Positions 6,289-60,588 of a stretch of DNA of 64,000 nt are shown here, piece after piece. Each line of letters opens with the position of its first letter. The stretch's first letter is position 1. Made by a program: the position numbers and the translations under genes. The stretch comes from Turneriella sp. (GTDB taxonomy: Bacteria; Spirochaetota; Leptospiria; Turneriellales; Turneriellaceae), in contig CBDIID010000003.1 in the NCBI GenBank assembly GCA_965279515.1, positions 3,744,001 through 3,808,000 of the forward strand. Reading direction: 5' to 3'. The notes under the pieces were generated by a model. It worked only from the letters and a program-made list of their open reading frames with translations. It ran no database searches and was not told where the DNA came from.

Positions 6289-6506
6289 AACGTGGAATTT
6301 ACAAGACGTTGATGGTGCGCCACACAATAATTGCAGGCTTATTTGGAAAGCCGCGTATCAAGCACCATCAATGTGTCGTAGGCGGCTGCGTTGCGCCTGA
6401 CCAAACAAACGCCCCGTTTGTCAGGCGTCAACGCATTTCAGGCCGCCGGAGACCGAGCACGCGAGGAGCTACGGCACCGCAGCGAGCGCAGCTTGTAAAT
6501 TTTGTT
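6289..6506 (-). repeat. attC-like site 6
   Basis: aatttacaag...cttgtaaattt compensatory variant. Confidence 0.9.
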
Positions 6507-6570
6507 GTCTGAAGTAATTGCGCCTGTGAGCCCGGCTAGGAGGGCCGGGCGAACCCTTAGTGCGACTGCT

Positions 6571-6665
6571 CATAACTGGTCATTTTGTCACTTCCAGAAA
6601 CAGGTTTTACACCTGAGAGATTCGGGGTATCTTAGGTCTTAATGGGGAGCAAGTTCTTATATGCT
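6571..6665 (+). repeat. Inner capture repeat, B part (CATAA...)
   Basis: cataactggtcattttgtcac...caggttttacacctgagag...ggagcaagttcttat. Confidence 0.8.
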
Positions 6666-7841
6666 CAAGCCAATTCTCTTGAATAGACTTTCTAATCTTT
6701 CTTCCGCCCATATTTTTAATTCGGGTTCAGTCTCAAAATATCTCTGATACGAATCATGAAATCCGGGAGCCAAATTTTTAATAAATCTCAGAAAATCTTC
6801 TCGAGTCCATTTTTCATGGGGCTTTCGAACAGCCTTGGATATTCGCACTCCATTTAAATCTGCGATGACTCGGGAAATATGCCGGGTAAGTTTGCCGTTA
6901 ACCATACTAACATTTCCAATAAAATCAATGTTTAATGTCGTCACCACACGCCCCTGAGAAAGGAGATATCCACTCAAATAACCAGCAATAGATCTTCGCC
7001 GGCGCCATTCACGACTTTCAAAATCCTGATACTCATCTTGCGCAGTAAGCCGACTGTTCCTGTTTTTGGCTCGTATTTCAAAAATGCGATTACAGCGATT
7101 CTGCCGCAGCATTTTATGAATTTCCGCAGAAGGGCGCTCGTCAGGAAAACCGGAGGCCATCACTGGCAATGCATAAGATCGAGCAAGGAGGAGATAAGAG
7201 ATGTTATCCGCTTCAAAATCCGAAGAATATGTAGCTTGGCCGGAAAAATCATGGTAATTAGCCGAGGTAATTTTTTGGAACTGGGTATGAACGAAGTTAT
7301 GCCAGAAATTCCTAAGCAAGTAGTTTGTTGTCCAATTTTTAAATGCAGCGCGATTGATTGCTGCAACCCCAAGTTTGGCGACAGGTTCGTCTGGAATCAC
7401 TTGGCCATAATAGAGAAAACGAAAAAAGGTTTCAGAAAGAGAATTTTCGATTCTCCGAATTTTATTCCGCAACGGAAAATCAAAAGATCCATAAAAAAAT
7501 CGATCAGCCATCTCGTTTATCCTTAACGTCGGATCGGACTGGATAAGGTTTACAACACAGTATTTATCCCATACATTATTCTCTTGAAAGAAAAGATCAA
7601 TATCCGCGTCAGATTTTGAGAGTAGATTCCTACCGAAGAATTCTGAAATTGAGTTGTTTTCATTCAGAGTAATACTCATCCTCTGCAAAGCCGATAAATA
7701 TGCGTTAACCAGATCCACTGGCCTTAAAATGATATCTTTGCCCAGGGCATCAACTTTGATTTGCTTAACCGTACTTTTAAAATTTATGTCTTGGGCCCAT
7801 CTCTCTAATGCCGCCCGAACCTCGTTAAATGAGCCGTCCAT
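6657..7841 (-). CDS. Hypothetical protein (stop codon lies in the inner repeat)
   Basis: 394 aa ORF with GGAGG upstream. Confidence 0.75.
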   Translation of the reverse strand: MDGSFNEVRAALERWAQDINFKSTVKQIKVDALGKDIILRPVDLVNAYLSALQRMSITLNENNSISEFFGRNLLSKSDADIDLFFQENNVWDKYCVVNLIQSDPTLRINEMADRFFYGSFDFPLRNKIRRIENSLSETFFRFLYYGQVIPDEPVAKLGVAAINRAAFKNWTTNYLLRNFWHNFVHTQFQKITSANYHDFSGQATYSSDFEADNISYLLLARSYALPVMASGFPDERPSAEIHKMLRQNRCNRIFEIRAKNRNSRLTAQDEYQDFESREWRRRRSIAGYLSGYLLSQGRVVTTLNIDFIGNVSMVNGKLTRHISRVIADLNGVRISKAVRKPHEKWTREDFLRFIKNLAPGFHDSYQRYFETEPELKIWAEERLESLFKRIGLSI

Positions 7842-8019
7842 CGCACCCTCCGTTCACAGACCATTTATTGACAAACTGTATGCATAATTGCAAATCCGCT
7901 GTCCAGAAAAACACAACCGGCAACTCCTCTGCTGATGCTGCGAGGTCTCACCTCCGGCCTCTATAAATGATGAAAATGCACTTAACGCGAGAAAGCTAGA
8001 AAACAGCCTTAACGAGTCA

Positions 8020-8051
8020 AATATAGCCCTTTAAGCACTAACTACCCATAA
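8020..8051 (+). repeat. Inner capture repeat, A part only
   Basis: aatatagccctttaagcactaactacccataa. Confidence 0.8.
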
Positions 8052-8126
8052 CTGATTCTTAGGGCGCAACAGATGTGCCGCGCCGACACGAGGTCGGCGA
8101 AGAAGAGAGGCGCAATTATTTCAGAC

Positions 8127-8337
8127 AACGTGGAAAATACCCGAATTGCGCCCCCGCGGGTGTAAAGTGTAAATAATCACGGCTTTATGTGACTTTCGCG
8201 GGAGCGCATTTGCCCGAAGCGCCTCGCGGCAAAGCACAGAACAAGCGTCCCGCTTGTGCTTTGTCCGCGATCTTTGGCGCGCAGGGCCGAGCACGCGAGC
8301 CAACGAAGTGCTCGCGGCGCAGCGGGTATTTTTTGTT
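8127..8337 (-). repeat. attC-like site 7
   Basis: Family consensus ends. Confidence 0.9.
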
Positions 8338-8529
8338 AGCCGCCGTTACCGGATTCGCGCGGCTGGCGAGCAACCCGAAGGTCAGCGAGATACTGTAGTT
8401 CGATATTATTAGTAACCGAGGAGTTGTCGCCAGGATCAAAGGCGTAAGCAGCGAAATCTGGTTGTACTCTCTGATAACAAATCCTCTTTTTCTCCCCTTC
8501 GGGGCGCGAAGGAGGTAATGGTGGCTAAC
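8335..8529. repeat. ORF-less cassette copy 3
   Basis: Near-identical to 2366-2559. Confidence 0.85.
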
Positions 8530-8734
8530 GTGGATTTTACGCTGACGTTTTTTGACGCTTGTGTCATTTATTCAATTTGTAAAGCCGATTTGCGTCAAAA
8601 AATGTGGTCGTAGCGGCTCGCAGTGGCGCGCAAAAGCAAGCGTCCCGCTTGCGCGACATCTGCGATCTTTGCCGCGGAGACCCGAGCACGCGAGGAGCTA
8701 CGGCACCGCAGCGGCGCAGCGCGTAAAATTTGTT
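8527..8734 (-). repeat. attC-like site 8
   Basis: Family consensus ends. Confidence 0.9.
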
Positions 8735-8769
8735 GGGTGCCGTACACGACTCTAAAGCCATCGGCTTCT

Positions 8770-14503: not shown

Positions 14504-14713
14504 GTCTGAAGTAATTGCGCCTGTGAGCCCTGGCAAGGAGGCCAGGGCGACTAGGATTAAGGTCTCATAATCAGAAAAAATACCGTTTTTCGAGTCAAAA
14601 CTTCGCGTGATGTATCTTTTTGTCATCTAAAAACCCGCTTTACACCTTAGAGATTTGGGATTCTGTAGGTCTTAGTGGGCGAGTGTGCCTGCACATTACT
14701 AAATGTATTAAAA

Positions 14714-18931: not shown

Positions 18932-18995
18932 GTCTGAAGTAATTGCGCCTGTGAGCGCGGCCAGGAGGGCCGCGCGAAATCCAATCTCAGCTACC

Positions 18996-19089
18996 CATAA
19001 TTTGTCATTTTGTTGCCTCAAGAACAGGCTTTACGCCTGAGAAATCCGGGGCTCCGGAGGTCTTTGTCGGGAATAGATTCTTATGTAGT
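18996..19089 (+). repeat. Inner capture repeat, B part
   Basis: cataatttgtcattttgtt...caggctttacgcctgagaa...ttcttat. Confidence 0.78.
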
Positions 19090-19599: not shown

Positions 19600-19833
19600 T
19601 CAACATAGGTCTGGCACAGCTGATTGTTGCCGGGCGCGGGGGACTATTCTGCGCATCCGTAAGCACCATTCGTACATTCTGGCTTCGCCAGCGCCCTCAG
19701 GTATGATATTGCAAATTCTCAATCCGTTTGAGAGTTGAAATCGTAGCCCTGCGATCTTGCCCCCCGGACCAAATGATACAAAGATACTTTGCACGTTCGA
19801 TGCACCTGTCATTTCGCAGGCCTTTCCCAAGAC
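19600..19833 (-). pseudogene. Possible 5'-truncated gene fragment at cargo edge
   Basis: Open frame runs up into the repeat end at 19834. Confidence 0.35.
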
Positions 19834-19953
19834 AATATAGCCCTTTAATGGGTTAACTGCCCATAAGGCGTCATTGTGTCTCCTGATAACAGGCTCTACA
19901 CCTGAGAGATTATGGGGCCTGTAGGTCCCAGGATAAGTAATTTCTTATTCACT
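19834..19953 (+). repeat. Inner capture repeat, complete A+B
   Basis: aatatagccctttaat...cataa...caggctctacacctgagag...aatttcttat. Confidence 0.8.
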
Positions 19954-41085: not shown

Positions 41086-41147
41086 GTCTGAAGTAATTGC
41101 GCCTGTGAGCACGGGCATGGAGGCCCGGGCGACGACGGACAAGTTCT

Positions 41148-41249
41148 CATAATCAATACTCCGACAGTTTAGCCCAATCTGAAACAGGCTTTACACCTGA
41201 GAGACCATGGGTGCCATAGATCCCAATGGGGAGCAATTTCTTATATATT
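41148..41249 (+). repeat. Inner capture repeat, B part
   Basis: cataatcaatactccgac...caggctttacacctgagag...ggagcaatttcttatatatt. Confidence 0.8.
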
Positions 41250-42136: not shown

Positions 42137-42202
42137 GCGTTGCAGTTTACAACAAACATTTCAAATCGGCGATTATTTTTAGGGTAACGAGATGAATAAA
42201 AT

Positions 42203-42583: not shown

Positions 42584-42585
42584 TG

Positions 42586-43059: not shown

Positions 43060-43186
43060 TTTAACTCCTATTTTTAACTGTTCTACAAGGTTGACTCAGT
43101 TCAGGTGCACTTTATTCCGCGCAATGGGAATTTTTTTAGCATTAGACTGGTCATATCATTAGAGTGAAGGCGAATGGTGTCAAACC

Positions 43187-43708
43187 GTGATATTCAATAA
43201 ATCCGCACGCTTTGAAGAGCTGATTAGACCGCACGTTGATTCGGCCTATAACCTTGCGCGCTATTTAGCGCATAACGACGCAGATGCTGAAGATATTCTA
43301 CAAGAATCCTTGATCAGAGCGTTTCGCTTCTTCGAGACCACGCAGGATTTACGCCCTTGGTTCTTGAAAATTGCGCGCAATTGTGCCTATAGTTGGCTGA
43401 AAAAGCAAAATCGCTATCAAGAGATGACCGATGACGAGATGAATTCCCTCGTCGACGAACAACCTATTGCTGAGGCGCAGTGGTTAAAAGAGATTACGGT
43501 TTTTGAAGTTCGTGAAAATATTCTGAAACTTAAAGCACAATTTCAAGAAGTTTTGGTCTTGCGCGAACTTGAGCAACTGTCCTACGCGGAGATTTCATTT
43601 ATCACAGGCATAGCGCAAGGGACCGTAATGTCTCGCCTTGCGCGCGCGCGAAAAAAGTTTCGGGAATTTTACGAACAGGCTCAGAGGGAGGTCTCACGTG
43701 ACAAATGA
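43187..43708 (+). CDS. ECF RNA polymerase sigma factor
   Basis: DAEDILQE..IRAFR, W..IARN, LSYAEI...GTVMSRLARAR. Confidence 0.93.
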   Translation: MIFNKSARFEELIRPHVDSAYNLARYLAHNDADAEDILQESLIRAFRFFETTQDLRPWFLKIARNCAYSWLKKQNRYQEMTDDEMNSLVDEQPIAEAQWLKEITVFEVRENILKLKAQFQEVLVLRELEQLSYAEISFITGIAQGTVMSRLARARKKFREFYEQAQREVSRDK

Positions 43709-44318
43709 ACATAAACTAGAAGGCGAATCTGTCTTTGGCGCGAAGCGTAAGTACCTATACTTCAAGCTACCCGATGCACGCCGTGAACGTCTCTTCGCAG
43801 AAATTCGACCCAAATTTGCGGCAAAAACGATTATGGCAATTGCGGCATCGACTCTACTAGCCATGAGCTTTTTTTTCGGGCAAGCCATGTCGACAAAAGA
43901 TGCTCCAGACCAGATCGCCGGTGAAGTTGTGTCTGCACATGTTCACTCGTTGATGGTCGGTCATCTGTCGGATATCGCCTCATCCGACCGACATACCGTA
44001 AAGCCATGGTTTGACGGTAAGTTAGATTTTTCGCCTCAAGTCAAAGATCTGTCCGCCGCAGGATTTCCGCTCGTTGGCGGCCGATTGGATTACATCGGGA
44101 GTCGTTCGGTCGCGGCACTGGTGTACAAGCATCGAAAGCACGTTATCAATTTGATGCAGTGGCCTGTGAGCGAAAGCGACGGAAAACCAACGTTCTCGAC
44201 GCGGCGTGGTTATCAAATGTACACATGGACGGCTTCAGGCATCAAACATTGGTTGATTTCTGATCTGAACGGGGGTGACCTGCAAAAATTTGTAAATTTA
44301 TTGCTGAACAAAAGCTGA
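43698..44318 (+). CDS. Transmembrane anti-sigma factor
   Basis: SSDRHTVKPWF.GKLDFSP...GFPLVGGRLDY. Confidence 0.88.
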   Translation: MTNEHKLEGESVFGAKRKYLYFKLPDARRERLFAEIRPKFAAKTIMAIAASTLLAMSFFFGQAMSTKDAPDQIAGEVVSAHVHSLMVGHLSDIASSDRHTVKPWFDGKLDFSPQVKDLSAAGFPLVGGRLDYIGSRSVAALVYKHRKHVINLMQWPVSESDGKPTFSTRRGYQMYTWTASGIKHWLISDLNGGDLQKFVNLLLNKS

Positions 44319-44347
44319 GATAGTTCGCTTAAAAAACGGTAACGCAT

Positions 44348-44375
44348 TTTAATAGTTGCTGAGGCAACTATTAAA
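44348..44375. promoter_or_regulatory. Palindromic operator (TAGTTGC-N4-GCAACTA), probably MarR
   Basis: tttaatagttgctgaggcaactattaaa; related copies at 46736 and 47245. Confidence 0.65.
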
Positions 44376-44390
44376 TCAAAAGGAGCCCTC

Positions 44391-45488
44391 GTGAAGAATT
44401 TGCTATGGATCTTAGTGTCAGTGAAAATTCTCAGCGTTAGCGAACTTGCTGCGGCTAAGAGAGTGTTGATTCTAGACTTTCACAATACTGACCGCGATGG
44501 AAGCTTAACATATCTCGAAGAATCGCTAACAGCAAGTGTCCGAACTTACCTGCACGAGAAGTACGAATTTTTCGAACCTGATGTTGTGGATGTACGCAAG
44601 CGAGCTGACGCTGATTATTTTATTTTTCCGGACGATTTACACAATAAAAATGTCGCGCTGCATCTGGGGCTTGCCATGGGTCAAGATATCGTTTTGAGCG
44701 GTGCATTTAAACGAAAAATTGAATCTTCGGGGCGAAATCTCATCATCGTAGATATCATGTTATTGAATGTTGAAAAGCGCACACTTGTTAAACAATTTGT
44801 GAGCGAACTCTATATAGATAGCAATATCTTCAAATCTATCGAGCTCGTATCCCGCCGCGTGGTAAAAGAATCGCAAGAGATTTTGCCCAATAAGAGCGAA
44901 TTTGAATTTGATATACATTCTCCTCTATCACAAAATCAATTGGCATTGTTTAGCGGCTATAATCTTAACTCCCTTTTTCCAGCCTTGCAAAAAAATGCGA
45001 CAATCGAAAATAAATCTCGGGTGGTAGTTGCTGATCTCGGTGGGCCATTTCTTTCACTGGAATTCAGGCGGGATCGATTTTTTAAGCTAGCACGATTGAT
45101 AGGTTATGGCCGTCTCGACGGGCAATTCTTTTTGAGTGATTTGGCCATCCAAGATTCAGCAAATCGCGCCAAAATACAGGGCTTAGGCTTTTCTGCCGAA
45201 CTCGGTCTAGGCTACAATTTGTTTCGCTACAAAAAGCTAAATCTCTATTTTCTGGGTGGAGTCGGTTTTGCATACGCAAAAGTCAGCCTGGATCTGCAGG
45301 ATACCGGGCAGCCCGATACTGTGACCGGTTCAATTTTTGGCCCAACGGCCAGCACGGGATTGCGTGCAGCGTTTCAAATTTCACCCTCTACTAGCTTTGA
45401 ATGGGGTGTTAGCTACCAAGCTTTATTCTTACAACAATCGTTGGCGGGTAATTTATTAACTTCCATAGGCGTAGGATTCAGACTATGA
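44391..45488 (+). CDS. Exported protein with C-terminal outer-membrane beta-barrel
   Basis: Signal peptide; alternating beta strands ending GVGFRL. Confidence 0.7.
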   Translation: MKNLLWILVSVKILSVSELAAAKRVLILDFHNTDRDGSLTYLEESLTASVRTYLHEKYEFFEPDVVDVRKRADADYFIFPDDLHNKNVALHLGLAMGQDIVLSGAFKRKIESSGRNLIIVDIMLLNVEKRTLVKQFVSELYIDSNIFKSIELVSRRVVKESQEILPNKSEFEFDIHSPLSQNQLALFSGYNLNSLFPALQKNATIENKSRVVVADLGGPFLSLEFRRDRFFKLARLIGYGRLDGQFFLSDLAIQDSANRAKIQGLGFSAELGLGYNLFRYKKLNLYFLGGVGFAYAKVSLDLQDTGQPDTVTGSIFGPTASTGLRAAFQISPSTSFEWGVSYQALFLQQSLAGNLLTSIGVGFRL

Positions 45489-46726
45489 AAACCAAACCAA
45501 ACTCTCTGTTGCTTCTCTCGATCACTTTATTTTTCAGCTGTAGTGGAGGCCTTGAAATCGACACACAGTTCGGCAAAGTTCTGGTTTCCCCGACTACGGG
45601 CCTGACGACAATTGCTGGCGGTGGGACTACAAACTTCTCTTTGGCTCTCGCTCAAAAACCCAAAGCCGATGTGACTATCCGCCTGAATAGTTCTGCTGAA
45701 TCGCTTGGCTACGTCGATAAAAAACGCCTTGTTTTCTCTGCGCAAAATTGGTCGCAGAAGCAAATTGTCACGATCACGGGTACTGACGAAACAATTAGCG
45801 CCAACATTGCTCAAAAGTATAAGATAGTTTTTGCGCCCCTTGAAAGTATAGATGGCAACTACAGCGCGCTACAGATACCAGAGCTTGCAGTGCTGAATTA
45901 TCCCGCTGTCGCTGGCTTTACTCTGAGCGCCACATCGGGGCTTACGACGACAGAAGCGGGTGGTACAGCCACCTTTACGATGCGATTAAATCGACAACCG
46001 ATGGGGAATGTGACGGTCAATCTTAGCTCGAGTAATATTCTTGAAGGCACTATTTTGCCTGCGAGTTTTATTTTCACTAGTGCAAACTGGAATATCGTTA
46101 AGACGGCGACAATTACAGGCATTCCTGACTTAAAACTTGATGGCAATGTTGATTTTAACATAGTTACCACGGTTGCGCTTGGCAGTGATTCTGAATACCT
46201 ATTGCTGAATCCGACGGATTTCAGTGTTACCAATATCGATGTTGATAGTGGCAAATTTCTTTTTGTCACTACGGCTAGTTTCATGGGTACAGGTGGTTTA
46301 ACTACCATGGATATTCGCTGCAATGCAGTCGATGCCGCGCGGCCGACGGTTGGTGGTACGTATCAAGCTGTCTTGGGCGCACTAGACAGCGCAGGTAACG
46401 TCGTACGCAGCGGGGGGCTTTTAGCCAATCAGAGATACTATCGCGGCGTGGATAGCCTCTATGTCGGCATCACGAATGGCTTGGGTCAACTTCAGTTTCC
46501 ATTGACGAATAGCACTTTGGGCGGCTCAGGTATCTACTGGACAGGACTAACCGCAAGCTTTGGCGTGAGTATCGACACCTGTCGAAATGGAGCGGTTGAT
46601 TCTTGGACCGGTGGGCCGTTCAACGGTACTGTTGGCACTGGCACCGTAACCTCATCCGCAGCTGTGGCCACTGGCACTGGCAGTTGCGGTGCTGGAACTG
46701 CGAGGCTTCTCTGCGCACAGCAATGA
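45485..46726 (+). CDS. Surface lipoprotein with Ig/Calx-beta-like repeats and endostatin-like (DUF1554/Len-type) C-terminus
   Basis: FFSC lipobox; TTEAGGTATF..L..QP...V repeats; YWTGL...C..W...LLCAQQ. Confidence 0.72.
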   Translation: MKTKPNSLLLLSITLFFSCSGGLEIDTQFGKVLVSPTTGLTTIAGGGTTNFSLALAQKPKADVTIRLNSSAESLGYVDKKRLVFSAQNWSQKQIVTITGTDETISANIAQKYKIVFAPLESIDGNYSALQIPELAVLNYPAVAGFTLSATSGLTTTEAGGTATFTMRLNRQPMGNVTVNLSSSNILEGTILPASFIFTSANWNIVKTATITGIPDLKLDGNVDFNIVTTVALGSDSEYLLLNPTDFSVTNIDVDSGKFLFVTTASFMGTGGLTTMDIRCNAVDAARPTVGGTYQAVLGALDSAGNVVRSGGLLANQRYYRGVDSLYVGITNGLGQLQFPLTNSTLGGSGIYWTGLTASFGVSIDTCRNGAVDSWTGGPFNGTVGTGTVTSSAAVATGTGSCGAGTARLLCAQQ

Positions 46727-46735
46727 GAATGCTAA

Positions 46736-46757
46736 ATTGGTTGCCAACGCAACCAAT
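46736..46757. promoter_or_regulatory. Palindromic operator upstream of marR
   Basis: attggttgccaacgcaaccaat. Confidence 0.6.
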
Positions 46758-46773
46758 GACTCGTCTTTGGCTC

Positions 46774-47211
46774 ATGCTTAGCCTAGATAAGGCCTATGGA
46801 TTTCATATCGTACGCATTGCACGACTTTTGCGACTGCATTTTTCTAGGTTCGCCGAAAAAAACGGGTTCGATATTTCGCAAGAGCAATGGCTGATCATGA
46901 ATAAATTAGCGCATAACCCTGGTCAATCCCAACTTGAACTCGGCGATGCATTGATACACGACAAACCCAACATCACACGAATTTTGGCCGGCATGGAAAA
47001 GCGCAAGCTCATTCAACGCCGCGTCGACACCAGCGATCGCCGCATTATGCGCGTGAGCCTCAGCGCGCAAGGTAGAAAATTGCATGAAGAATTTTCAGAG
47101 GTCGTCGCCAACGAGCGGCCGAAAATTTACGCAGGTTTAGCTGAGGCAGATTTCATAAATTTGATGAAAGTTCTGTCGCAGCTCGAAACGAACATTAGCC
47201 GCAACATGTAA
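46774..47211 (+). CDS. MarR family transcriptional regulator
   Basis: EQWLI...SQ.EL...DKPNITRIL..MEK..LI.R..D..DRR. Confidence 0.92.
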   Translation: MLSLDKAYGFHIVRIARLLRLHFSRFAEKNGFDISQEQWLIMNKLAHNPGQSQLELGDALIHDKPNITRILAGMEKRKLIQRRVDTSDRRIMRVSLSAQGRKLHEEFSEVVANERPKIYAGLAEADFINLMKVLSQLETNISRNM

Positions 47212-47244
47212 TGCGAAGCTTAAAAAAAGGCCTCATAACGGCAA

Positions 47245-47264
47245 ATAGTTGCCTAGGCAACTAT
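47245..47264. promoter_or_regulatory. Palindromic operator upstream of downstream operon
   Basis: atagttgcctaggcaactat. Confidence 0.65.
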
Positions 47265-47283
47265 AAGAAATTTGAAGGAGAAA

Positions 47284-47733
47284 ATGATGAAAAAGAAAAC
47301 GAGAAAATCCATGTTGTTCATGGCATTGACACTGATGACGGGTGTATTTGCTGCACCAGAAAGCGCGGGCACGGTCAAAGAGTTGCGCCGAAAAATCGAA
47401 GCGTTCAAAGACGCCGGTGACGCACGCGACGTGGCGGCGATGAATGCAGTGCTGCACAAAGATTTTCGCTTAATGGCGTTTATCGGCGCCGCGACTGAGG
47501 GCATGGCGATGGATAAGGCGGGCTATGTCGGTGCGCTTACCGCTGGCAAAATCGGCGGAACCAAGCGCGCGCACAAGATTCTATCGCTTGAAGTGCGTGG
47601 CAAACACGCCGCGATTCGCATTCAGATGACGTCGAAAGAATTAAAATTCGACACGTACATGCAATGGGTTCAGACCGTCGATGGTTGGCAGCTCGTGAAC
47701 GATTTAACGCTGGCAGTACCTCAGGCAAAATGA
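47284..47733 (+). CDS. Exported NTF2-like (DUF4440-type) protein
   Basis: Signal peptide; D.....VLH.DF ... DGWQLV. Confidence 0.7.
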   Translation: MMKKKTRKSMLFMALTLMTGVFAAPESAGTVKELRRKIEAFKDAGDARDVAAMNAVLHKDFRLMAFIGAATEGMAMDKAGYVGALTAGKIGGTKRAHKILSLEVRGKHAAIRIQMTSKELKFDTYMQWVQTVDGWQLVNDLTLAVPQAK

Positions 47734-47734
47734 C

Positions 47735-48232
47735 ATGCGCCGGGTGGTATGGGCAGTTATTATTTCGGGGTGGTGCTTGAGCTCAGCCACCCCGCGCGCA
47801 AATCTCATTCAGGCGCAGGGTATGGAAGTCACTTGGTCGCTTACAAGCGATGAAGTGATCTTTAAGCTGCGCGCCCCGCATACAGGTTGGGTGGCGATTG
47901 GGATTAATGAGTCAGACAACCTCACTGGAACCAATCTGATAATGGCGACAGTTTCCGGCAATGCAGCAAACCTGTCTGACCGCAGCATTATTGCACCCGG
48001 CGACCATCGTAGCGTTGAGACACTCGGCTGTAAATCGCATGTGCGATTAATTTCGGGTAGCGAACAAGCTGGCGCCACGAACATTCAGTTTGCGCTCAAG
48101 CTGCAAAGCAGCGATCGCTACCATTACTCTCTGAGCGCCGGAAAAAAAATCTGGCTACTCATGGCTTATAGTGAAAGCGACGATTTAATGCACCATTCTT
48201 TGTTTAGAACTTCGAAACAAATTATGTTGTAA
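47735..48232 (+). CDS. DOMON domain protein
   Basis: W......F.L.AP.TGWVAIG ... L.AYS.SDD..HHS. Confidence 0.82.
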   Translation: MRRVVWAVIISGWCLSSATPRANLIQAQGMEVTWSLTSDEVIFKLRAPHTGWVAIGINESDNLTGTNLIMATVSGNAANLSDRSIIAPGDHRSVETLGCKSHVRLISGSEQAGATNIQFALKLQSSDRYHYSLSAGKKIWLLMAYSESDDLMHHSLFRTSKQIML

Positions 48233-48268
48233 TGGAAATGGAAATTTGATTTAGGAAAGGAGAAAAAC

Positions 48269-48646
48269 ATGAAAGTAAAAAAAATAATTTGGGCATTGGT
48301 CGCGTTAGCGACATCAGGTATTTGGGCAGACGTAGTGCCTTATTCAAAGGCAGAATTTCTCAAAGCGCAGGAAGATGGCAAATCTGTTGTCATCGACGTC
48401 GCGGCATGGTGGTGCCCGGTTTGCCGCATTCAGAAATCGCGCATCACCTCGCTGATTGAAGATGAAGTGGAATTCAAGAATACCACTGTCTTTGTTGTCA
48501 GTAACGGCGATTCCGAAACGAAGCAAGAATTTGGCGTGAGCAGCAGGGGGACAGTAATTGCCTTTAAAGGCAAAACCGAAAAATCTAGACTGGTGCTCGA
48601 AACCGACAAAGAAAAGCTGCGAGAGCTTTTGCGCTCAGGACTTTGA
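48269..48646 (+). CDS. Exported thioredoxin family protein
   Basis: AWWCPVC. Confidence 0.88.
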   Translation: MKVKKIIWALVALATSGIWADVVPYSKAEFLKAQEDGKSVVIDVAAWWCPVCRIQKSRITSLIEDEVEFKNTTVFVVSNGDSETKQEFGVSSRGTVIAFKGKTEKSRLVLETDKEKLRELLRSGL

Positions 48647-49356
48647 TGCCGTTTGCTCTAACATTCATGGCTGGTGCCATCGGCACCCTGTCACCGTGTG
48701 TTCTGCCCGTGCTGCCCATCGTTATGGGTAGCACGCGGCAGTCAGGGCCCTTGGGCCCCGTTGTGCTAGCGGCAGGAATGATTTTTTCATTCACCCTTGT
48801 CGGCTTTAGCGTCGCGAGTTTTGGCTATAAAGTTGGCATAACGCAAGAGACGATTAGCTCTGTTGCTGCAGTGATGCTGCTCATTTTTGGCCTAGTGATG
48901 TTTTCGAGTAGCTTGGCGGATTTTTTGACGAAACTGCTGCGTCGTTTCTCTGAGCGGTTTGCCAACGTCTCGGCGAAATCAGACAAAAAAACTTATGCCG
49001 GTCAGTTTTTTACCGGTATCTTACTCGGCGGCATTTGGAGTCCTTGTACGGGCCCGACCCTCGGCGTTGCCATATCACTTGCTGCTTCGCAAAAAGATTT
49101 ACTCCGTTCTTTTTTTCTAATGGCAACGTATGGCGTAGGTTCCGCGCTACCGCTGATGCTGGTTGCATATTTTTCACGCCAGTTTTCGTCCAGACGAGAA
49201 CGCATTGGCAATCTTGCCGCTTCGAGTAAGAAAGTTTTCGCGATCATTCTCATTATTGCCGGATTATTGATGGTGACACATTTAGATAAAGTGCTAGAGG
49301 GCTTCTTGCTGGATATTCTACCCGAATCATTCATGAACTTTCTCACGAAGTACTGA
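48643..49356 (+). CDS. ccdA: Cytochrome c biogenesis CcdA / DsbD transmembrane protein
   Basis: LSPCVLPVLP and WSPCTGPTLG. Confidence 0.9.
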   Translation: MMPFALTFMAGAIGTLSPCVLPVLPIVMGSTRQSGPLGPVVLAAGMIFSFTLVGFSVASFGYKVGITQETISSVAAVMLLIFGLVMFSSSLADFLTKLLRRFSERFANVSAKSDKKTYAGQFFTGILLGGIWSPCTGPTLGVAISLAASQKDLLRSFFLMATYGVGSALPLMLVAYFSRQFSSRRERIGNLAASSKKVFAIILIIAGLLMVTHLDKVLEGFLLDILPESFMNFLTKY

Positions 49357-49841
49357 TGCAAGTTTTTTGGAAATTTTTATTCCTGAGTACGCTTATTCTA
49401 GGCACTTCTTCCTGTAATGCTCCACGGAAAAACTTGAAACAGATAACCATGATTAATCCACCGAATGTCTACGCCACGTATGACCGCGGCTTTTCTCAAG
49501 GCGTGCGCGCTCACGTGAGCGAGATTATTTTTCTTTCAGGTATAGTCGGCTGGCAGGAGAATCGAAAGCTCAAAGATCAGGACGATTTTACATCGCAAAC
49601 GCAACAGGCGTTTAGAAACATAATGAGCATTCTGGCCCATGAAAACTTGTCGGAAAATTCGATACTGCACCTACGTTATTTCGTCGTGAATCTGTCACCT
49701 GAGCGAGTACAACGGGTGGCGCAGGCGATGGCTGCGATCTTTAAGTTCGATTATAAACCTGCCACGACCATCGTCGGCGTATCCGCCTTAGCGCGACCTG
49801 ACCTATTGATAGAGATCGAAGTGACAGCAGTGGCAAAGTAA
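49356..49841 (+). CDS. RidA (YjgF/YER057c) family protein with lipoprotein-like leader
   Basis: FSQGV...IFLSG...PATT.VGV.AL..P..LIEIE. Confidence 0.88.
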   Translation: MQVFWKFLFLSTLILGTSSCNAPRKNLKQITMINPPNVYATYDRGFSQGVRAHVSEIIFLSGIVGWQENRKLKDQDDFTSQTQQAFRNIMSILAHENLSENSILHLRYFVVNLSPERVQRVAQAMAAIFKFDYKPATTIVGVSALARPDLLIEIEVTAVAK

Positions 49842-49843
49842 AA

Positions 49844-49976
49844 AAAATAGTTCTTTAAGGCCATATTTAACTTCTCATAATCAGTATTCCGACCGATGAC
49901 CTCACTCTGAAACGGGCTTTACACCTGAGAGATAATGGGTTCTGTAGGCCAAGTTGGGAGTAATTTCCTGCATGTT
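49844..49976 (+). repeat. Inner capture repeat, complete A+B
   Basis: aaaatagttctttaagg...cataatcagtattccgac...cgggctttacacctgagag...ggagtaatttcc. Confidence 0.8.
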
Positions 49977-50250: not shown

Positions 50251-50312
50251 GTCTGAAGTAATTGCGCCTGTGAGCCCTGGCAAGGAGGCCAGGGCGACGG
50301 CAGATAAATGCT

Positions 50313-50407
50313 CATAACTTGTCATTTTGTCACCTTCAAAAACAGGCTTTACACCCGAGAGATTCGGGATTCTGTAGGCCTTAGTGGGGAGTAATTTCCT
50401 ACATATT
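50313..50407 (+). repeat. Inner capture repeat, B part
   Basis: 95 bp identical to 55611-55705. Confidence 0.9.
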
Positions 50408-55315: not shown

Positions 55316-55597
55316 ATGGCACAAAACATCCACGCATTCACCGCCGCCAACATTTCCGGCAAAGAAACAAGCCTCGCCGATTACAAAGGCAAAGTTGTTT
55401 TGATTGTGAACACCGCCAGCAAATGCGGCTTCACACCGCAGTTCGCGGGTCTCGAATCGCTGTACGAAAAATACAAAGACCGCGGTCTCGTGATTCTTGG
55501 CTTTCCCTGCAACCAATTTGGCGCGCAAGAACCCGGTACATCTGATCAGATTCAGGAATTCTGTCAGCTCAACTACGGGGCAAATATAGCACTTTAA
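55316..55597 (+). pseudogene. Glutathione peroxidase, 3'-truncated by the inner repeat
   Basis: [32 protein letters not shown], then abruptly ANIAL* encoded by the repeat; C-terminal half (WNF motif) absent. Confidence 0.88.
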
Positions 55598-55705
55598 GGC
55601 ACTAACTACCCATAACTTGTCATTTTGTCACCTTCAAAAACAGGCTTTACACCCGAGAGATTCGGGATTCTGTAGGCCTTAGTGGGGAGTAATTTCCTAC
55701 ATATT
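55583..55705 (+). repeat. Inner capture repeat, complete A+B (123 bp)
   Basis: aatatagcactttaaggcactaactacc-cataa-...-ctacatatt. Confidence 0.9.
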
Positions 55706-55775: not shown

Positions 55776-55984
55776 AACGTGGATTTTACGCTGACGTTTT
55801 TTGACGCTTGTGTCATTTATTCAATCTGTAAAGCCGATTTGCGTCAAAAAATGTGGTCGTAGCGGCTCGCGGCGACGCGCGAAAACACACCTCCCGGTGT
55901 GCGCGTCGTCCGCGATCTTTGCCGCGGAGACCCGAGCACGCGAGGAGCTACGGCACCGCAGCGGCGCAGCGCGTAAAATTTGTT
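55776..55984 (-). repeat. attC-like site 40
   Basis: Family consensus ends. Confidence 0.9.
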
Positions 55985-56049
55985 GTCTGAAGTAATTGCG
56001 CCTGTGAGCTCGGCCACGGATGGCCGAGCGAATCCTTCGTAGGACTTCT

Positions 56050-56143
56050 CATAACTGGTTGTTTTCCCCCCCTGTCAATCGGGCTTTACAGCCGATAGGT
56101 GAGGTTTAAGTTCCCCTTAGTGAGGAGCAATATCCTATATATT
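56050..56143 (+). repeat. Inner capture repeat, B part
   Basis: cataactggttgtttt...cgggctttacag...ggagcaatatcctatatatt. Confidence 0.8.
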
Positions 56144-56617: not shown

Positions 56618-56624
56618 ACTGAAA

Positions 56625-58316: not shown

Positions 58317-58334
58317 CCGAACACGTGTCTCAAA

Positions 58335-58409
58335 AATATAGCCCTTTAAGGGCTGACTTTCCATAACTGGTTGTTTTGTCCCCCTGTAAGGAGCAATATT
58401 CGAGATATT
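58335..58409 (+). repeat. Inner capture repeat, A plus internally deleted B
   Basis: aatatagccctttaaggg...cataactggttgtttt...ggagcaatatt. Confidence 0.8.
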
Positions 58410-58727: not shown

Positions 58728-59156
58728 CTATCGCCCAATGGCGGGTCTTTGCTTTTCTAACGGGCGAACAAAATTGCAATCATACCCTTTTCCTTTGAAG
58801 AAGCTTGAGTTGGTATCAAAATCTCGACTTTTCCATTTCTCGCTTGAATAAGAAAAGCAACCACTTGGAGCTTTTATGTCGTTAAAATTTAGCGTGTAGC
58901 AAATGAGCTGGCCTTCTGAAATAGGGGTTTCAACGCAATAAAAGCCATCTTTGGCTGTATGGTATTGCTTTGTGACCGGTTCGGCGGCCTTAGGGTCTAG
59001 ATTAATCGTTATGCCAATATCCGAACAACCTTTTCCGTTCACGGTAACGTATCCGTACATGCTGCACTTGAATTCATGCGCTTGCGCATGAATTTTCTGA
59101 TTTAGAAAAAATGATGTAGAGGAAAAAAGTAAACAGTAGAAAATATTGCTTTTCAT
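58728..59156 (-). CDS. Hypothetical exported protein
   Basis: AGGAG RBS, signal peptide. Confidence 0.7.
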   Translation of the reverse strand: MKSNIFYCLLFSSTSFFLNQKIHAQAHEFKCSMYGYVTVNGKGCSDIGITINLDPKAAEPVTKQYHTAKDGFYCVETPISEGQLICYTLNFNDIKAPSGCFSYSSEKWKSRDFDTNSSFFKGKGYDCNFVRPLEKQRPAIGR

Positions 59157-59184
59157 AAAAATCTCCTAGGCATCGATTTCGCAC

Positions 59185-59393
59185 AACGTGGATTTTACGC
59201 TGACGTTTTTTGACGCCTGTGTCATTTAATCAAATTGTAAAGCCGATTTGCGTCAAAAAATGTGGTCGTAGCGGCTCGCGGCGACGCGCGAAAACACACC
59301 TCCCGGTGTGCGCGTCGTCCGCGATCTTTGCCGCGGAGACCCGAGCACGCGAGGAGCTACGGCACCGCAGCGGCGCAGCGCGTAAAATTTGTT
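59185..59393 (-). repeat. attC-like site 42
   Basis: Family consensus ends. Confidence 0.9.
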
Positions 59394-59454
59394 GTCTGAA
59401 GTAATTGCGCCTGTGAGCCCGGCTAGTAGGGCCGGGCGAAGAAGAATTAATGCC

Positions 59455-59550
59455 CTTAACCGCTCATTTTGTCATATGAAATCAGGCTTTACACTTGAGG
59501 GATTCGGGATTCTATAGGCCTGATTCGGGAGCAATTTCTTATATAATATT
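59455..59550 (+). repeat. Inner capture repeat, B part
   Basis: cttaaccgctcattttgtca...caggctttacacttgag...ggagcaatttcttatata. Confidence 0.78.
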
Positions 59551-59573
59551 TCTCACCAAAGCGAAGTAACGAT

Positions 59574-60236
59574 ATGAAGCTCAAAATGATTCTATTTGCA
59601 ATGTTGATTCAGAATGGTATGATGTCTGCTCAAGAAGCGAAAAAGCCCGACCAAAAAATTTTGAGGGCCATTGATTCCGGAAACATACAAAAGGTAAATT
59701 CGGCGATAAAAGAAAACCCGTCATATCTCAATCAAGCCATTGAATTCTGGGGCACACCCCTAATTTTTGCAGTGAATAAAGATTTTCTAGCGGCGGTTGA
59801 AAGTTTAGTGAAAAGCGGTGCCGATGTGAACGGACGCGACACAGAAGGACGCACGCCACTAATGTGGTGCCCTATGGATGTGGGGCCGTTCCGTGGCTGT
59901 GGGAGGAACCAGAAGACGCCTCAGAGGAAACGCCAGGAAAGCGAGAGATGTGATACCAAGCTTGCCCGCCTGAAAAAAAACAGAGAGCGTATTCTCATAT
60001 TTCTGCTGAAATCGGGAGTCGATATTGCCGCTGTTGATAACCAAGGACGAACTGCGCTCCACTACGCAGCACGAATGGACGATTTAGACATGGTTAAGTT
60101 TTTGCTGAAAAACGGTGCGAATCCGCACGCACGGGATAAGAGAGGCATGACTCCCGCGAGCGAGACGGCGCCTGAGGGTACCGCGTCGGGCTATGACGCG
60201 GGGAGAATTAAAAAAATCCTGAAGCATAGTCTATAG
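59574..60236 (+). CDS. Ankyrin repeat protein (exported)
   Basis: GTPLIFAV, GADVN.RD.EGRTPL, GRTALHYAA. Confidence 0.92.
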   Translation: MKLKMILFAMLIQNGMMSAQEAKKPDQKILRAIDSGNIQKVNSAIKENPSYLNQAIEFWGTPLIFAVNKDFLAAVESLVKSGADVNGRDTEGRTPLMWCPMDVGPFRGCGRNQKTPQRKRQESERCDTKLARLKKNRERILIFLLKSGVDIAAVDNQGRTALHYAARMDDLDMVKFLLKNGANPHARDKRGMTPASETAPEGTASGYDAGRIKKILKHSL

Positions 60237-60261
60237 AGCGACATATTATGTATGAAAGAAA

Positions 60262-60294
60262 AAAATAGTCCTTTAATGCTGTAACTAGCCACAA
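60262..60294 (+). repeat. Inner capture repeat, A part only (degenerate)
   Basis: aaaatagtcctttaatgctgtaactagccacaa. Confidence 0.65.
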
Positions 60295-60371
60295 TGAGTT
60301 CATCCTGTCGCAGCAGATTTGCTGCGTCGCCAAGGATGGCGACGAAGTACAAAGGCGCAATTATTTCAGAC

Positions 60372-60588
60372 AACGTTGGATTTACCTGACGTCGATGGTG
60401 CGCCGCACAATAAATGCCGTCTTCTTACGAAAGCCGCTCTTGGCGCGCCATCGATGTGCCGCAGGTGGCTGCGTTGCGCCCGCCAATTAAGCTCGACAGA
60501 GCGCGGGCGTCAACGCATTTCAGGCCACCGGAGGCCGAGCACGCGAGGAGCTACGGCACCGCAGCGAGCGCAGCAGGTAAATCTTGTT
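60372..60588 (-). repeat. attC-like site 43
   Basis: Family consensus ends, diverged middle. Confidence 0.88.

What the first reader, a model, noticed from the sequence alone, without database searches (positions are those of the whole stretch)
6504..60374. Nested gene-capture system: a second ~122 bp repeat brackets captured DNA inside integron cassettes
SEEN: six cassettes (6504-8129, 18929-20022, 41083-50045, 50248-55778, 55982-58478, 59391-60374) share the layout shell-left | CATAA-B(~95 bp)-TATATT | cargo | AATATAG-A(27-32 bp)-CATAA [B or unrelated] | shell-right. The intact unit A+B (e.g. 55583-55705) has roughly inverted ends AATAT...ATATT. The left copy always lacks A, and similarity starts at about CATAA. 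In two cassettes (8020-8051, 60262-60294) the right copy is A only, so the unit is split and permuted around the cargo. Cargo is 0.7-8.6 kb and is cut through genes at the unit ends. INFERENCE: a circle made of the unit plus adjacent DNA (joined at the unit termini) integrated at the CATAA core of an acceptor cassette. That would be a route for turning ordinary DNA into integron cassettes, whose origin is an open question. I know of no description of this arrangement, but cannot search.
Basis: partly seen in the sequence, partly recalled or inferred. Interest (0 to 1): 0.95.

Follow-up and report, generated by a model that had tools for sequence, protein, structure and literature searches.

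The report
Rolling-circle transposon ends inside gene cassettes
The repeated 122-base unit is the end piece of a rolling-circle (IS91-type) jumping gene that lives inside one family of integron-like gene cassettes and seems to have brought stretches of ordinary chromosome into them: a known kind of gene capture, seen in a new place.

Summary
The layout is real. All six cassettes read shell-left | B | cargo | A(+B) | shell-right, and the same layout turns up in two related species and in two metagenome contigs. The unit is not an unknown recombination site. In related genomes the intact A+B unit is the last ~125 bp of a ~1.56 kb IS91-family insertion sequence. It lies downstream of a 382-aa rolling-circle transposase, where IS91 has its oriIS. 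The base after the B end is followed by NAAN (NTTN on the other strand, the IS91-type target) in 36 of 50 distinct copies. Three of five close IS copies sit directly behind the "shell-left" sequence. Extra units with 0.5-4.6 kb of unrelated DNA between them line up behind the IS. The window's own genome has no such transposase, only orphan units. So a second capture system nested in cassettes is supported. It works like IS91/ISCR one-ended transposition, not like a circle integrating through an unknown recombinase. The recurrent CATAA(C) junction is confirmed but what catalyses it is unresolved. No source copy of the cargo, no empty shell cassette and no circle were found. The host array is itself unusual: ~205-nt attC-like sites, cassette-specific 21-nt terminal inverted repeats, and a Xer/IntI-like recombinase.

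The parts
6560..6665 (+). Cassette 1 (6504-8129): left copy of the unit, lacking the first ~22 profile positions (the B part plus 11 nt before CATAAC). It sits behind shell-left (IR-L 6504-6524 plus hairpin L).
   Evidence: profile 23-130, E 1.6e-22
8015..8067 (+). Cassette 1: right copy, made of A plus CATAAC plus ~16 nt of B-like sequence, followed by the shell-right spacer and hairpin R.
   Evidence: profile 4-57
18990..19089 (+). Cassette 2 (18929-20022): left copy (B).
   Evidence: profile 31-129, E 2e-16
19830..19953 (+). Cassette 2: right copy, a full A+B. It is followed by TAAC, 15 nt and hairpin R.
41141..41249 (+). Cassette 3 (41083-50045): left copy (B) of the subtype with extra bases after CATAAT. 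The same subtype is the end of a transposase-bearing copy in metagenome locus L092.
41250..49838 (.). Cassette 3 cargo, 8.6 kb. It starts with a 5'-truncated MarR gene (41207-41539). It then carries ClpP, DoxX, an ECF sigma factor, DUF1554, MarR, DOMON, thioredoxin, DsbD and RidA genes on both strands.
   Evidence: no second copy in the genome or in 20 genomes of the family
49839..49976 (+). Cassette 3: right copy, a full A+B of the same subtype as its left copy (74% identical; each is the other's nearest). It is followed by TAAT, a spacer and hairpin R.
50304..50407 (+). Cassette 4 (50248-55778): left copy (B), 99% identical to the B of the right copy.
55316..55597 (+). Glutathione peroxidase gene cut at the start of A (Pfam GSHPx 1-88 of 108). 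A paralogue, 83% identical over the last 256 nt, is at C3:1832331-1832585. At the homologous point the paralogue continues with TAAA.
55578..55705 (+). Cassette 4: right copy, an intact A+B unit. It is followed by CAAT, an 18-nt spacer and hairpin R.
55778..55982 (.). One of 42 attC-like sites in the window, from the AAC of the left core to the GTT of the right core, about 205 nt. Together with its 21-nt outer inverted repeats and hairpins R and L it folds into one long stem.
   Evidence: (z -8.8)
56044..56143 (+). Cassette 5 (55982-58478): left copy (B).
58332..58405 (+). Cassette 5: right copy, A plus the start of B, then an internal deletion, then the tail of B.
59447..59547 (+). Cassette 6 (59391-60374): left copy (B); the core reads CTTAAC.
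60259..60312 (+). Cassette 6: right copy, A plus the core (CACAAT) plus ~14 nt of B-like sequence.
14575..14680 (+). Seventh case: a diverged unit including A (profile 5-113), starting 3 nt after the shell-left CTCATAAT of cassette 14501-15189. Here the shell's own CATAA motif and the unit are separate.

Best explanation
The A+B unit is the right-hand, oriIS-type end module of an IS91-family rolling-circle insertion sequence. The module is about 125 bp. Its A start looks like a terminator: a palindrome followed by an A/T run. Complete copies have a left end with a subterminal palindrome, a 382-aa HUH/Y2 transposase gene, a ~115-nt spacer and then A+B. They occur in related genomes, mostly inside the same 'shell' cassette family of an integron-like array.

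The unit also moves or is copied alone as a mini-element. Behind a resident copy, modules of [foreign DNA + unit] pile up in the same orientation. The window's B | cargo | A(+B) cassettes are such products whose transposase part is gone. The unit beside shell-right is joined 18-22 nt before hairpin R at a YAAY site. The cargo is a stretch of another chromosome that was linked to a unit and moved by one-ended (read-through) rolling-circle transposition. Because all this lies between two attC-like sites, the captured DNA has become a cassette.

Shown: the identity of the unit, its position in the IS, the target signature, the arrays behind the IS, the recurrent junctions, and the absence of the transposase from this genome.

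Inferred: the direction of transfer (by analogy with IS91), capture by read-through, and the origin of the CATAA(C) junction. My favoured reading of that junction is cleavage after GTTA on the transferred strand, both in the shell (CTCA|TAAC) and in the unit's core (CCCA|TAAC).
For: Transposase identity. The 382-aa protein matches Pfam Y2_Tnp (71.5 bits) and Zn_Tnp_IS91 (54.2 bits). It also matches NCBIfam NF033538, IS91 family transposase, at 151 bits against a cut-off of 125.

Position of the unit. All 5 close full-length copies read in flank (G011, G013 x2, G005, G091) have an intact unit downstream of the gene. So do the full-length copy in metagenome locus L092 and the cut copy in L088. 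Homology among four IS copies starts ~170 nt upstream of the gene and stops at the B end.

Unit as the copied entity. G011 has six near-identical units, three in exact tandem and three separated by 0.56, 1.8 and 1.6 kb. G005 has the IS plus three further units 1.6, 4.6 and 2.0 kb apart. L095 has tandem units and L082 has three units.

Target signature. NAAN follows the B end in 36 of 50 distinct flanks, including CAAG x4 and GAAC x3. On the first 32 flanks the count was 25 of 32 against a background of 8.8%, binomial p 7e-21. IS91-family targets are 5'-CTTG and 5'-GTTC, lying next to oriIS (PMC13181058, passages read).

Left end. The palindrome AGAAAA-N8-TTTTCT sits at the left tip in four IS copies and in a solo remnant in G000. 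In L092 the second arm reads TTCTCT.

Link to the shell cassette. The IS lies directly behind shell-left in G013 (both copies; E 2e-56 and 1e-48) and in G091 (3e-60). G011 has a degenerate match (1 of 300 shuffles reach its score) and G005 has none. A unit lies 18-22 nt before hairpin R in 10 distinct places, 8 of them with NAAN.

Cargo. It is truncated at unit ends (gpx, MarR). The G011 cargo genes have no orthologue next to the G000 orthologue of the flanking SSF gene.

Left and right B. They are each other's nearest relatives in 3 of 4 cassettes: 99%, 74% and 61% identical.
Against: This genome has no IS91-type transposase, found by protein search, family search and tblastn. Nothing here can be active now, and the family search had no positive control.

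No circle or junction read was sought. No source locus for the cargo was found: in the own genome, in 20 genomes of the family, or with one cargo protein in genome contigs and metagenome contigs. No empty shell cassette was found.

The CATAA(C) junction is not a canonical IS91 end. The core is not conserved in all transposase-bearing copies: G013 copy a reads CATATAG.

In metagenome cassette L091 the left and right B belong to different subtypes. In cassette 2 they are not nearest relatives. So 'both from one IS' does not always hold.

The four right copies that stop ~13-16 nt into B need an extra deletion or a second cleavage site.

The unit folds only weakly better than shuffles: z -0.65 to -1.8 for the G000 and G011 copies on either strand, and -3.1 for the G005 copy.

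Which end is ori and which is ter is taken from IS91 by analogy. The copies counted for NAAN are not all independent.
Confidence: 0.62

Rival explanations
1. A circle made of cargo plus one unit integrates by site-specific recombination at a short core (CATAA, perhaps ~20 nt: CyCATAAC-TnGTCATTTTGTC) of an acceptor cassette. The catalyst would be a tyrosine recombinase, most plausibly the array's own Xer/IntI-like enzyme acting on G|TTATG as a secondary core site.
For: The junction behind shell-left falls at the same place in units of at least three subtypes and in 13 distinct places. CATAA is native to shell-left even where no B follows. Four right copies read A-core plus ~13 nt and then the shell-right spacer, as a core-to-core insert would. 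Read on the other strand the core is GTTATG, close to the GTTRRRY type of the array's own sites such as GTTAGCC and GTTGTCT. A 366-aa recombinase flanks the arrays in 5 of 5 relatives.
Against: The unit belongs to a rolling-circle IS, and the copied entity runs from A start to B end, not core to core. The B end has its own target signature. Integration of a circle with one B cannot give two near-identical Bs (cassette 4, 99%) unless the acceptor already held the same B. No empty acceptor was found in 190 genomes. The core is absent from one active-looking copy (CATATAG in G013a). In G011 and G005 the unit arrays lie outside shell cassettes.
Confidence: 0.15
2. An attC-carrying transposable module. 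The true mobile entity is A+B | spacer | hairpin R | attC | hairpin L | core+B, about 570 nt (for example window 49839-50407 and 55578-56143). It is bounded by a terminator-like A start and an origin-like B end. Two such modules inserted into ordinary DNA would make the stretch between them excisable by the recombinase as a new cassette with exactly the observed ends.
For: It explains in one step the conserved ~70-nt cassette ends on both sides, the arbitrary cargo with cut genes at both ends, NAAN at the start of the cargo, and why the inverted repeats at the two ends of a cassette match. The module is contiguous wherever two shell cassettes adjoin, and on the short contig L084. Outside the arrays, G000 holds a unit plus shell-right plus attC (C3:2882633-2883070) and an attC plus shell-left plus B (C3:3631439-3631793). 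The attC and shell-left precede the transposase gene in G013 (x2) and G091.
Against: No complete module was found flanked by ordinary DNA on both sides. The two off-array copies are partial and decayed. In transposase-bearing genomes the units are few and sit behind the IS, not as dispersed modules. IS homology starts only ~170 nt upstream of the gene, not at the attC. The other ~100 cassettes have their own, different inverted repeats, so this cannot be the general way cassettes arise here.
Confidence: 0.13
3. No capture at all. Mini-elements (units) inserted independently into pre-existing cassettes, and later deletions trimmed them and the neighbouring genes.
For: Solo units exist, for example the stand-alone copy between two genes at C3:3244003-3244121 and copies in G002, G006 and G009. 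Several right copies show internal deletions. 9 of the 12 cargo ends do not cut a gene.
Against: The missing halves of the gpx and MarR genes are not on the other side of the units. The junction positions relative to hairpins L and R repeat in 13 and 10 places and across unit subtypes. The cassettes with units reach 9.0 and 5.5 kb and carry many genes on both strands, whereas most other cassettes in the window measure 0.6-1.2 kb.
Confidence: 0.08
4. B is a cis-regulatory leader (RNA or promoter) that belongs in front of cassette genes.
For: The stand-alone copy ends 8 nt before an ATG that opens a lipoprotein-like signal peptide. Many B tails contain GGAG. One stem shows compensatory changes by eye.
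Against: There is no Rfam family hit. GGAG is not conserved: it reads GGGCAGC in G011. Cargo genes next to B point either way. The unit is part of an IS.
Confidence: 0.02

Closest known systems
IS91 family (IS91, IS801, IS1294): rolling-circle insertion sequences with one-ended transposition
   Same: An HUH/Y2 transposase with an IS91 zinc-binding domain. Two unlike ends with subterminal palindromes. The origin-type end lies downstream of the gene. An NTTN-type tetranucleotide (including CTTG and GTTC) lies next to that end. Adjacent DNA is mobilised when termination fails (PMC13181058, passages read).
   Different: The ~125-bp end module is copied alone and in tandem. Modules of cargo plus unit pile up behind the IS. 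The IS sits inside a cassette of an integron-like array. A second recurrent junction lies at CATAA(C). The window genome holds orphan ends only.
ISCR elements, especially ISCR1 in complex class 1 integrons
   Same: An IS91-like element tied to an integron that places foreign genes at its origin end with one precise boundary. The association of ISCR1 with the 3'-CS is from the abstract of PMC6218425 seen in the listing. The rest is recalled.
   Different: The transposase is not of the ISCR type (NF052416: 29.6 bits against a cut-off of 925). ISCR1 sits beside the cassette array, and its captured genes are not cassettes. Here the captured DNA lies between two attC-like sites.
Elements that home to attC sites: IS1111-attC insertion sequences and group IIC-attC introns
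   Same: Mobile elements specialised on integron arrays. Group IIC-attC introns have been linked to cassette formation (abstract of PMC3001079 in the listings). IS1111-attC is recalled.
   Different: Those insert into the attC itself. This IS lies 35-61 nt behind a CATAAC or CATGAC motif about 66 nt inside the cassette. It is a rolling-circle element, not a DEDD transposase or a retroelement.
IS91-family elements found at or mimicking attC sites in other genomes of this scan (AI notes, unchecked)
   Same: Rolling-circle transposase elements placed in register with cassette arrays. One is described as carrying its own attC upstream of the transposase gene.
   Different: Most of those carry a tyrosine recombinase gene as well. 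This one has the transposase only, and the point here is cargo bracketed by its end modules.
Helitrons (eukaryotic rolling-circle transposons)
   Same: Gene fragments are captured by read-through of an end signal, and end sequences form tandem arrays (recalled).
   Different: A different transposase architecture and host. No sequence relation was tested.

Membership tests
IS91 family insertion sequence | HUH/Y2 rolling-circle transposase with the IS91 zinc-binding N-terminus | tested here: met
   For the copies in relatives: Pfam PF04986 (positions 1-177 of 183) and PF14319; NCBIfam NF033538 at 151 bits against 125. The catalytic residues were not checked one by one.
IS91 family insertion sequence | A transposase gene present in the genome that holds the window | tested here: not met
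   No match by protein search, by family search (which had no positive control) or by tblastn and blastn of the whole IS. Only unit copies and a 42-nt left-end remnant at C3:3028265-3028306 were found.
IS91 family insertion sequence | Two different ends without terminal inverted repeats, each with subterminal palindromes | tested here: met
   The left tip carries AGAAAA-N8-TTTTCT in four IS copies and a remnant, with a variant second arm in L092. The right module has palindromes in A and in B (CCCGAG-AGA-CTCGGG in G011; GCTCCCCA..TGGGGAGC in G005). Function was not tested.
IS91 family insertion sequence | A specific tetranucleotide (CTTG/GTTC type) next to the origin end, with no target duplication | tested here: met
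   NAAN on the plus strand (NTTN on the other strand) in 36 of 50 distinct flanks; 25 of 32 against 8.8% expected. Absence of duplication was judged by eye on a few copies only.
IS91 family insertion sequence | Single-stranded circle intermediate and one-ended transposition | not testable with these tools
   This needs a strain with the transposase. The read tools were not used because the window genome lacks the enzyme.
ISCR elements | ISCR-clade transposase | tested here: not met
   NF052416: 29.6 bits against a cut-off of 925.
Integron (host array) | IntI integrase with the integron-specific extra domain | tested here: not met
   TIGR02249 is below its cut-off in G000 and in 40 relatives. 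The best candidate (366 aa) scores 161 against 265 and matches in two pieces, with ~20 aa where the model has ~60. Its nearest solved relative is an archaeal Xer, followed by VchIntIA.
Integron (host array) | attC sites: imperfect palindromes bounded by inverse cores of the RYYYAAC / GTTRRRY type, one per cassette | tested here: met
   42 sites in the window with ..AAC and GTT.. cores about 205 nt apart, for example GGCTAAC/GTTAGCC. They fold strongly as a single strand (z -8.8). The length and the 21-nt outer repeats are atypical.
Integron (host array) | Recombinase gene at one end of the array | tested here: inconclusive
   The Xer/IntI-like gene lies 0.7-14 kb from the array end in 5 of 5 relatives. 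In G000 it lies at C3:2926126-2927193, far from both arrays.
MITE (classical, DDE-type) | Terminal inverted repeats plus target-site duplication | tested here: not met
   The ends are only roughly inverted (AATATAG / CTAyATAyT). No duplication was seen in the flanks listed.
Known structured RNA family | Match to an Rfam model | tested here: not met
   0 matches at gathering score over the whole window.

The most novel reading that the evidence does not exclude
The shell cassette is a 'cassette factory'. A rolling-circle IS, or its ~570-nt derivative that has the attC-like site between a terminator-like A start and an origin-like B end, is mobile both as a transposon and as a cassette. By read-through transposition, or by landing on both sides of a stretch of chromosome, it gives ordinary genes the two recombination-site halves they need. 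New multi-gene cassettes would thus be made de novo. This would be a concrete, testable route for the origin of integron cassettes.
Probability: 0.2. Interest if true: 0.9.

Novelty: new variant of a known kind. Interest (0 to 1): 0.68.

Why it matters
How integron cassettes are made from ordinary genes is still open. The idea met in the two listings searched involves group IIC-attC introns.

Here one cassette lineage keeps its ~70-nt ends on both sides while its content is replaced by unrelated pieces of chromosome. There are 28 such cassettes in this genome. The replaced content is bracketed by the end modules of a rolling-circle IS in the six window cassettes, in at least two more in this genome, and in two metagenome cassettes. 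Rolling-circle ISs of this family are known to carry off neighbouring DNA.

If the link is causal, IS91-type read-through transposition feeds new DNA into cassettes that a recombinase can then shuffle. That would join the two best-known gene-capture systems of bacteria in one unit. It can be tested with cloned parts.

The host array matters too. A large cassette system exists in a lineage that is probably a Leptospira-class spirochaete. That placement rests on DUF1554 in the cargo and on recall. The system has ~205-nt sites and a Xer-like recombinase. Standard integron finders would probably miss it (a recalled length limit).

Tried and rejected
- IS200/IS605-type ends (left-end/right-end hairpins, target CATAA). 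The genome has one IS200-like gene at C3:2616152, but no unit lies near it. Dropped once the IS91 transposase was found.
- IS110 bridge-RNA idea. No DEDD transposase in the genome.
- Riboswitch or leader RNA. No Rfam hit, and the GGAG is not conserved.
- Source of the cargo. Not in the own genome. Only paralogue-level matches to the 8.6-kb cargo in 20 genomes of the family. The cargo ORF 54428-55231 has no relative in genome contigs or metagenome contigs.
- Empty shell cassette. None in 95 loci or in 190 genomes of the class (exact motifs with up to 2 mismatches, so diverged ones could be missed).
- Complete attC-carrying module in ordinary DNA. Only two partial, decayed copies.
- Canonical integron integrase. 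None found.
- Earlier notes on this genome. None.
The list of 28 shell cassettes therefore covers the two arrays, with at most 5 substitutions in each end motif.
- The sequencing-run, read-laying, structure and complex tools were not used.

Full report
SETTING

The window is G000:C3:3744001-3808000 of a 4.9-Mb genome (53% G+C; the window is 47%).

It is almost wholly an array of short segments separated by a ~205-nt repeat with ..AAC at its left and GTT.. at its right. There are 42 such sites in the window. A profile of the repeat finds two arrays in the genome, C3:85.8-170.7 kb and C3:3734.3-3804.6 kb, plus scattered single copies. That is 152 profile hits in all, some sites giving two. With its flanks the repeat folds as single-stranded DNA into one long stem (-104 kcal/mol, z -8.8).

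In every one of the 41 cassettes in the window, the 14 nt outside the 7-nt core at the left end are the reverse complement of those at the right end. The mean is 11.2 of 14 matches. Across one repeat, between neighbouring cassettes, the mean is 5.9 of 14. Crossing-over at the core is therefore the way these segments were assembled, as in integrons.

No canonical integron integrase exists in this genome or in 40 relatives. A 366-aa Xer/IntI-like tyrosine recombinase scores 161 bits on TIGR02249 against a cut-off of 265. Its nearest solved relative is an archaeal Xer, followed by VchIntIA. This gene lies 0.7-14 kb from the end of the array in 5 of 5 relatives examined. In G000 it lies at C3:2926126-2927193, far from both arrays.

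I therefore call the host an integron-like array. 'Integron cassette' is right in form but not proven in enzyme.

THE OBSERVATION

- Left copies begin 6-14 nt before CATAA(C). What lies between hairpin L and that point is not significantly like A.
- Four right copies hold A plus all or most of B (cassettes 2, 3 and 4, and cassette 5 with an internal deletion).
- Two right copies (cassettes 1 and 6) stop about 13-16 nt into B. They are not strictly 'A only'.
- Two of the twelve cargo ends clearly cut genes: a glutathione peroxidase at the A start, and a MarR gene at the B end. A third ORF runs into B. The others end at whole genes.
- More copies exist: a seventh, diverged unit in cassette 14501-15189, copies in the other array, one stand-alone unit, and one beside a solitary repeat.

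The 'shell' is a family of at least 28 cassettes in the two arrays. They share ~70 nt at each end (a 21-nt inverted repeat plus a hairpin) but hold unrelated contents.

WHAT THE UNIT IS

A DNA search of the 13 other genomes of the genus found the unit in 9 of them. In G011 there are six near-identical full units at one locus. Three are in exact head-to-tail tandem, and three more are separated by 0.56, 1.8 and 1.6 kb.

The gene directly upstream encodes a 382-aa protein with the Pfam domains Y2_Tnp and Zn_Tnp_IS91. It passes the NCBIfam model for IS91-family transposases.

Close full-length copies of this gene (85-100% identical) occur in G011, G013 (two), G005 and G091, and on metagenome contig L092. 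A copy cut by the contig end is on L088. Every one has an intact unit downstream. The distance is about 110-120 nt, except 340 nt in G005, where a piece of the gene's 3' end is duplicated.

Pairwise comparison of four copies shows homology from ~170 nt upstream of the start codon to the last base of B, and no further. The unit is thus the right-terminal ~125 bp of a ~1.56-kb IS. That is the position of oriIS in IS91 (PMC13181058, passages read).

The left tip carries a palindrome, AGAAAA-N8-TTTTCT, a few bases from the end, with a variant second arm in L092.

G000 has no copy of the gene, nor any remnant of it. It has only units and one 42-nt left-tip remnant.

JUNCTIONS

The four bases after the B end read NAAN in 36 of 50 distinct copies. 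On the first 32 copies the count was 25, against 8.8% expected. CAAG and GAAC, the complements of IS91's CTTG and GTTC, are among the commonest. This marks the B end as a true transposition junction of the IS91 kind.

The A start is also a sharp boundary. Unrelated DNA precedes (A)AAATATAG in all solo copies. On the other strand it reads palindrome-ATATTTT, which resembles a terminator end. That is an inference.

The unit is therefore best seen as a mini-element made of a terminator-like start and the origin end. This explains the solo and tandem copies.

THE SHELL AND THE IS

In G013 (both copies) and in G091, which belongs to another family of the class, the IS lies directly behind a shell repeat and shell-left. 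It starts 35-61 nt after the motif CATAAC or CATGAC. In G011 the upstream DNA is a decayed shell-left (1 of 300 shuffles reach its score). In G005 there is none.

A unit lies 18-22 nt before hairpin R in ten distinct places (G000, G013, four metagenome contigs). In 8 of these the flank is NAAN, mostly TAAT, TAAC or CAAT. On contig L092 this unit is the IS's own.

G013 copy a shows the whole picture: shell-left, IS with its unit, 3.2 kb of cargo, a second near-identical unit, shell-right. The window's cassettes 2-5 are the same picture without the IS body.

Metagenome contigs L091 and L089 are complete cassettes of that kind with ~515-nt cargo. The right end of L091 is almost the same as that of window cassette 4.

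Shell-left followed by a unit lacking A occurs in 13 distinct places (G000, G001, G007, two metagenome contigs). In 10 of them the CATAA-type motif is at the join.

The units in the window belong to at least three subtypes, each known from a different IS variant. The subtype of cassette 3 is that of L092. So the same junctions arose more than once.

Left and right B of one cassette are each other's nearest relatives in 3 of 4 cases: 99%, 74% and 61% identical. This does not hold in cassette 2, nor in L091.

MECHANISM

Shown: the unit is an IS91-family end. It carries that family's target signature. IS copies sit in shell cassettes. Behind the IS, units and unrelated DNA alternate in one orientation. 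In G011 these intervening genes have no orthologue beside the G000 orthologue of the flanking gene.

Inferred: the transposase nicks at the B end and displaces the strand leftwards. When it ends at the A start it gives a unit-sized circle. When it reads through, it carries off the DNA to the left of a unit, as in the one-ended transposition of IS91. That explains the gpx gene cut exactly at an A start, with its other half absent. At the homologous point a paralogue continues with TAAA. Such pieces land next to a resident origin end or at a YAAY site close to hairpin R. The cargo thereby becomes part of a cassette.

For the CATAA(C) junction I favour cleavage after GTTA on the transferred strand, both in shell-left (CTCA|TAAC) and in the unit's core (CCCA|TAAC). 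This would also account for the TAAC or TAAT that follows the right-hand unit. It is not shown, and G013 copy a lacks the core.

The array's recombinase acting on G|TTATG is the main alternative. The bolder reading is a ~570-nt module that carries the repeat between an A start and a B end. The evidence does not exclude either.

COMPARISON AND NOVELTY

The system works like IS91/ISCR capture. ISCR1 beside class 1 integrons is the nearest parallel, but the transposase here is not of the ISCR clade.

Four points are new relative to what I could find:
- The IS lives inside a cassette.
- Its end module brackets the cargo, so that the captured DNA is itself a cassette.
- There is a second fixed junction.
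- The host array has ~205-nt sites and a Xer-like recombinase, in a lineage where the abstract of PMC3607928 (seen in the listing) knew integrons only from Treponema among the spirochaetes.

Searches for 'Turneriella' with 'integron' gave 0 papers. Searches for IS91 with attC, gene cassettes and chromosomal integron, and for cassette genesis or formation, listed no paper describing this arrangement. I read only listings and abstract starts, so this is weak evidence of absence. Supplements were not consulted. Earlier AI notes of this scan report IS91-type elements at attC sites in other genomes. They agree in theme and are unchecked.

VERDICT

The novelty class is a new variant of a known kind. 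Interest is moderate to high because it offers a testable route into cassettes.

Noticed in passing
window 1-60590 (all 41 cassettes): Every cassette has its own ~21-nt terminal inverted repeats extending the 7-nt cores (11.2 of 14 matches within a cassette against 5.9 of 14 across a repeat). By eye, position 11 is a recurrent mismatch (G at the left end against A expected). The excised circle would therefore fold better than the site does in the array.
   Followed up: partly
G000:C3:2926126-2927193, and array ends in G002, G005, G007, G011, G013: A 366-aa Xer/IntI-like tyrosine recombinase lacks the integron-specific insertion. It lies 0.7-14 kb from the array end in 5 of 5 relatives. In the three read closely it is downstream of the last site and on the same strand. 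In G000 it is detached from both arrays. It is a candidate integrase of a non-canonical integron.
   Followed up: partly
window 2366-2559, 8335-8529, 12207-12400, 28912-29105, 37658-37851 (also C3:3735.6 kb and 111.1 kb): A ~190-nt mini-cassette with canonical cores (GTTAGCC...GGCTAAC) recurs at least seven times, nearly unchanged and with no long ORF. It may be a small RNA or peptide cassette.
   Followed up: no
window 4973-6178 and 20993-22198 (minus strand): Two copies, identical in their Pfam hits, of a 401-aa IS481-family (rve) transposase gene are inserted in cassettes. A related gene lies near the start of the other array (L009:13396-14676). The second window copy lies in shell cassette 20226-22312, whose right end lacks hairpin R.
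   Followed up: partly
window 16793-17785 and 36460-37452: A duplicated block: repeat copies 99% identical, and two 779-nt cassettes with the same variant ends (GTTCTCTGACGTAGTTGTGCC).
   Followed up: no
G000:C3:3028265-3028306 (minus strand): A solo 42-nt remnant of the IS left tip (palindrome AGAAAA..TTTTCT) with nothing else of the IS beside it.
   Followed up: partly
L038:15715-17508 (G011): One stretch of cargo between two units contains two array repeats in the opposite orientation, so the nesting is reversed there: pieces of cassette array lie inside the unit array.
   Followed up: no
window 22638-26045 (minus strand) and 2795-4654 (minus strand): Large cassette genes: a 1135-aa KAP-family P-loop NTPase and a 619-aa DUF7380/DUF4209 protein. 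They may be defence-type cargo.
   Followed up: no
L035:1499-1677 and L022:1445-1592 (G002): Two units are interrupted by short insertions, 57 nt after ~10 nt of B and ~20 nt at the core. These are the same two spots where the window's copies break.
   Followed up: no
G000:C3:2616152-2616472: A single IS200-like Y1 transposase gene (134 aa), with no link to the units.
   Followed up: partly
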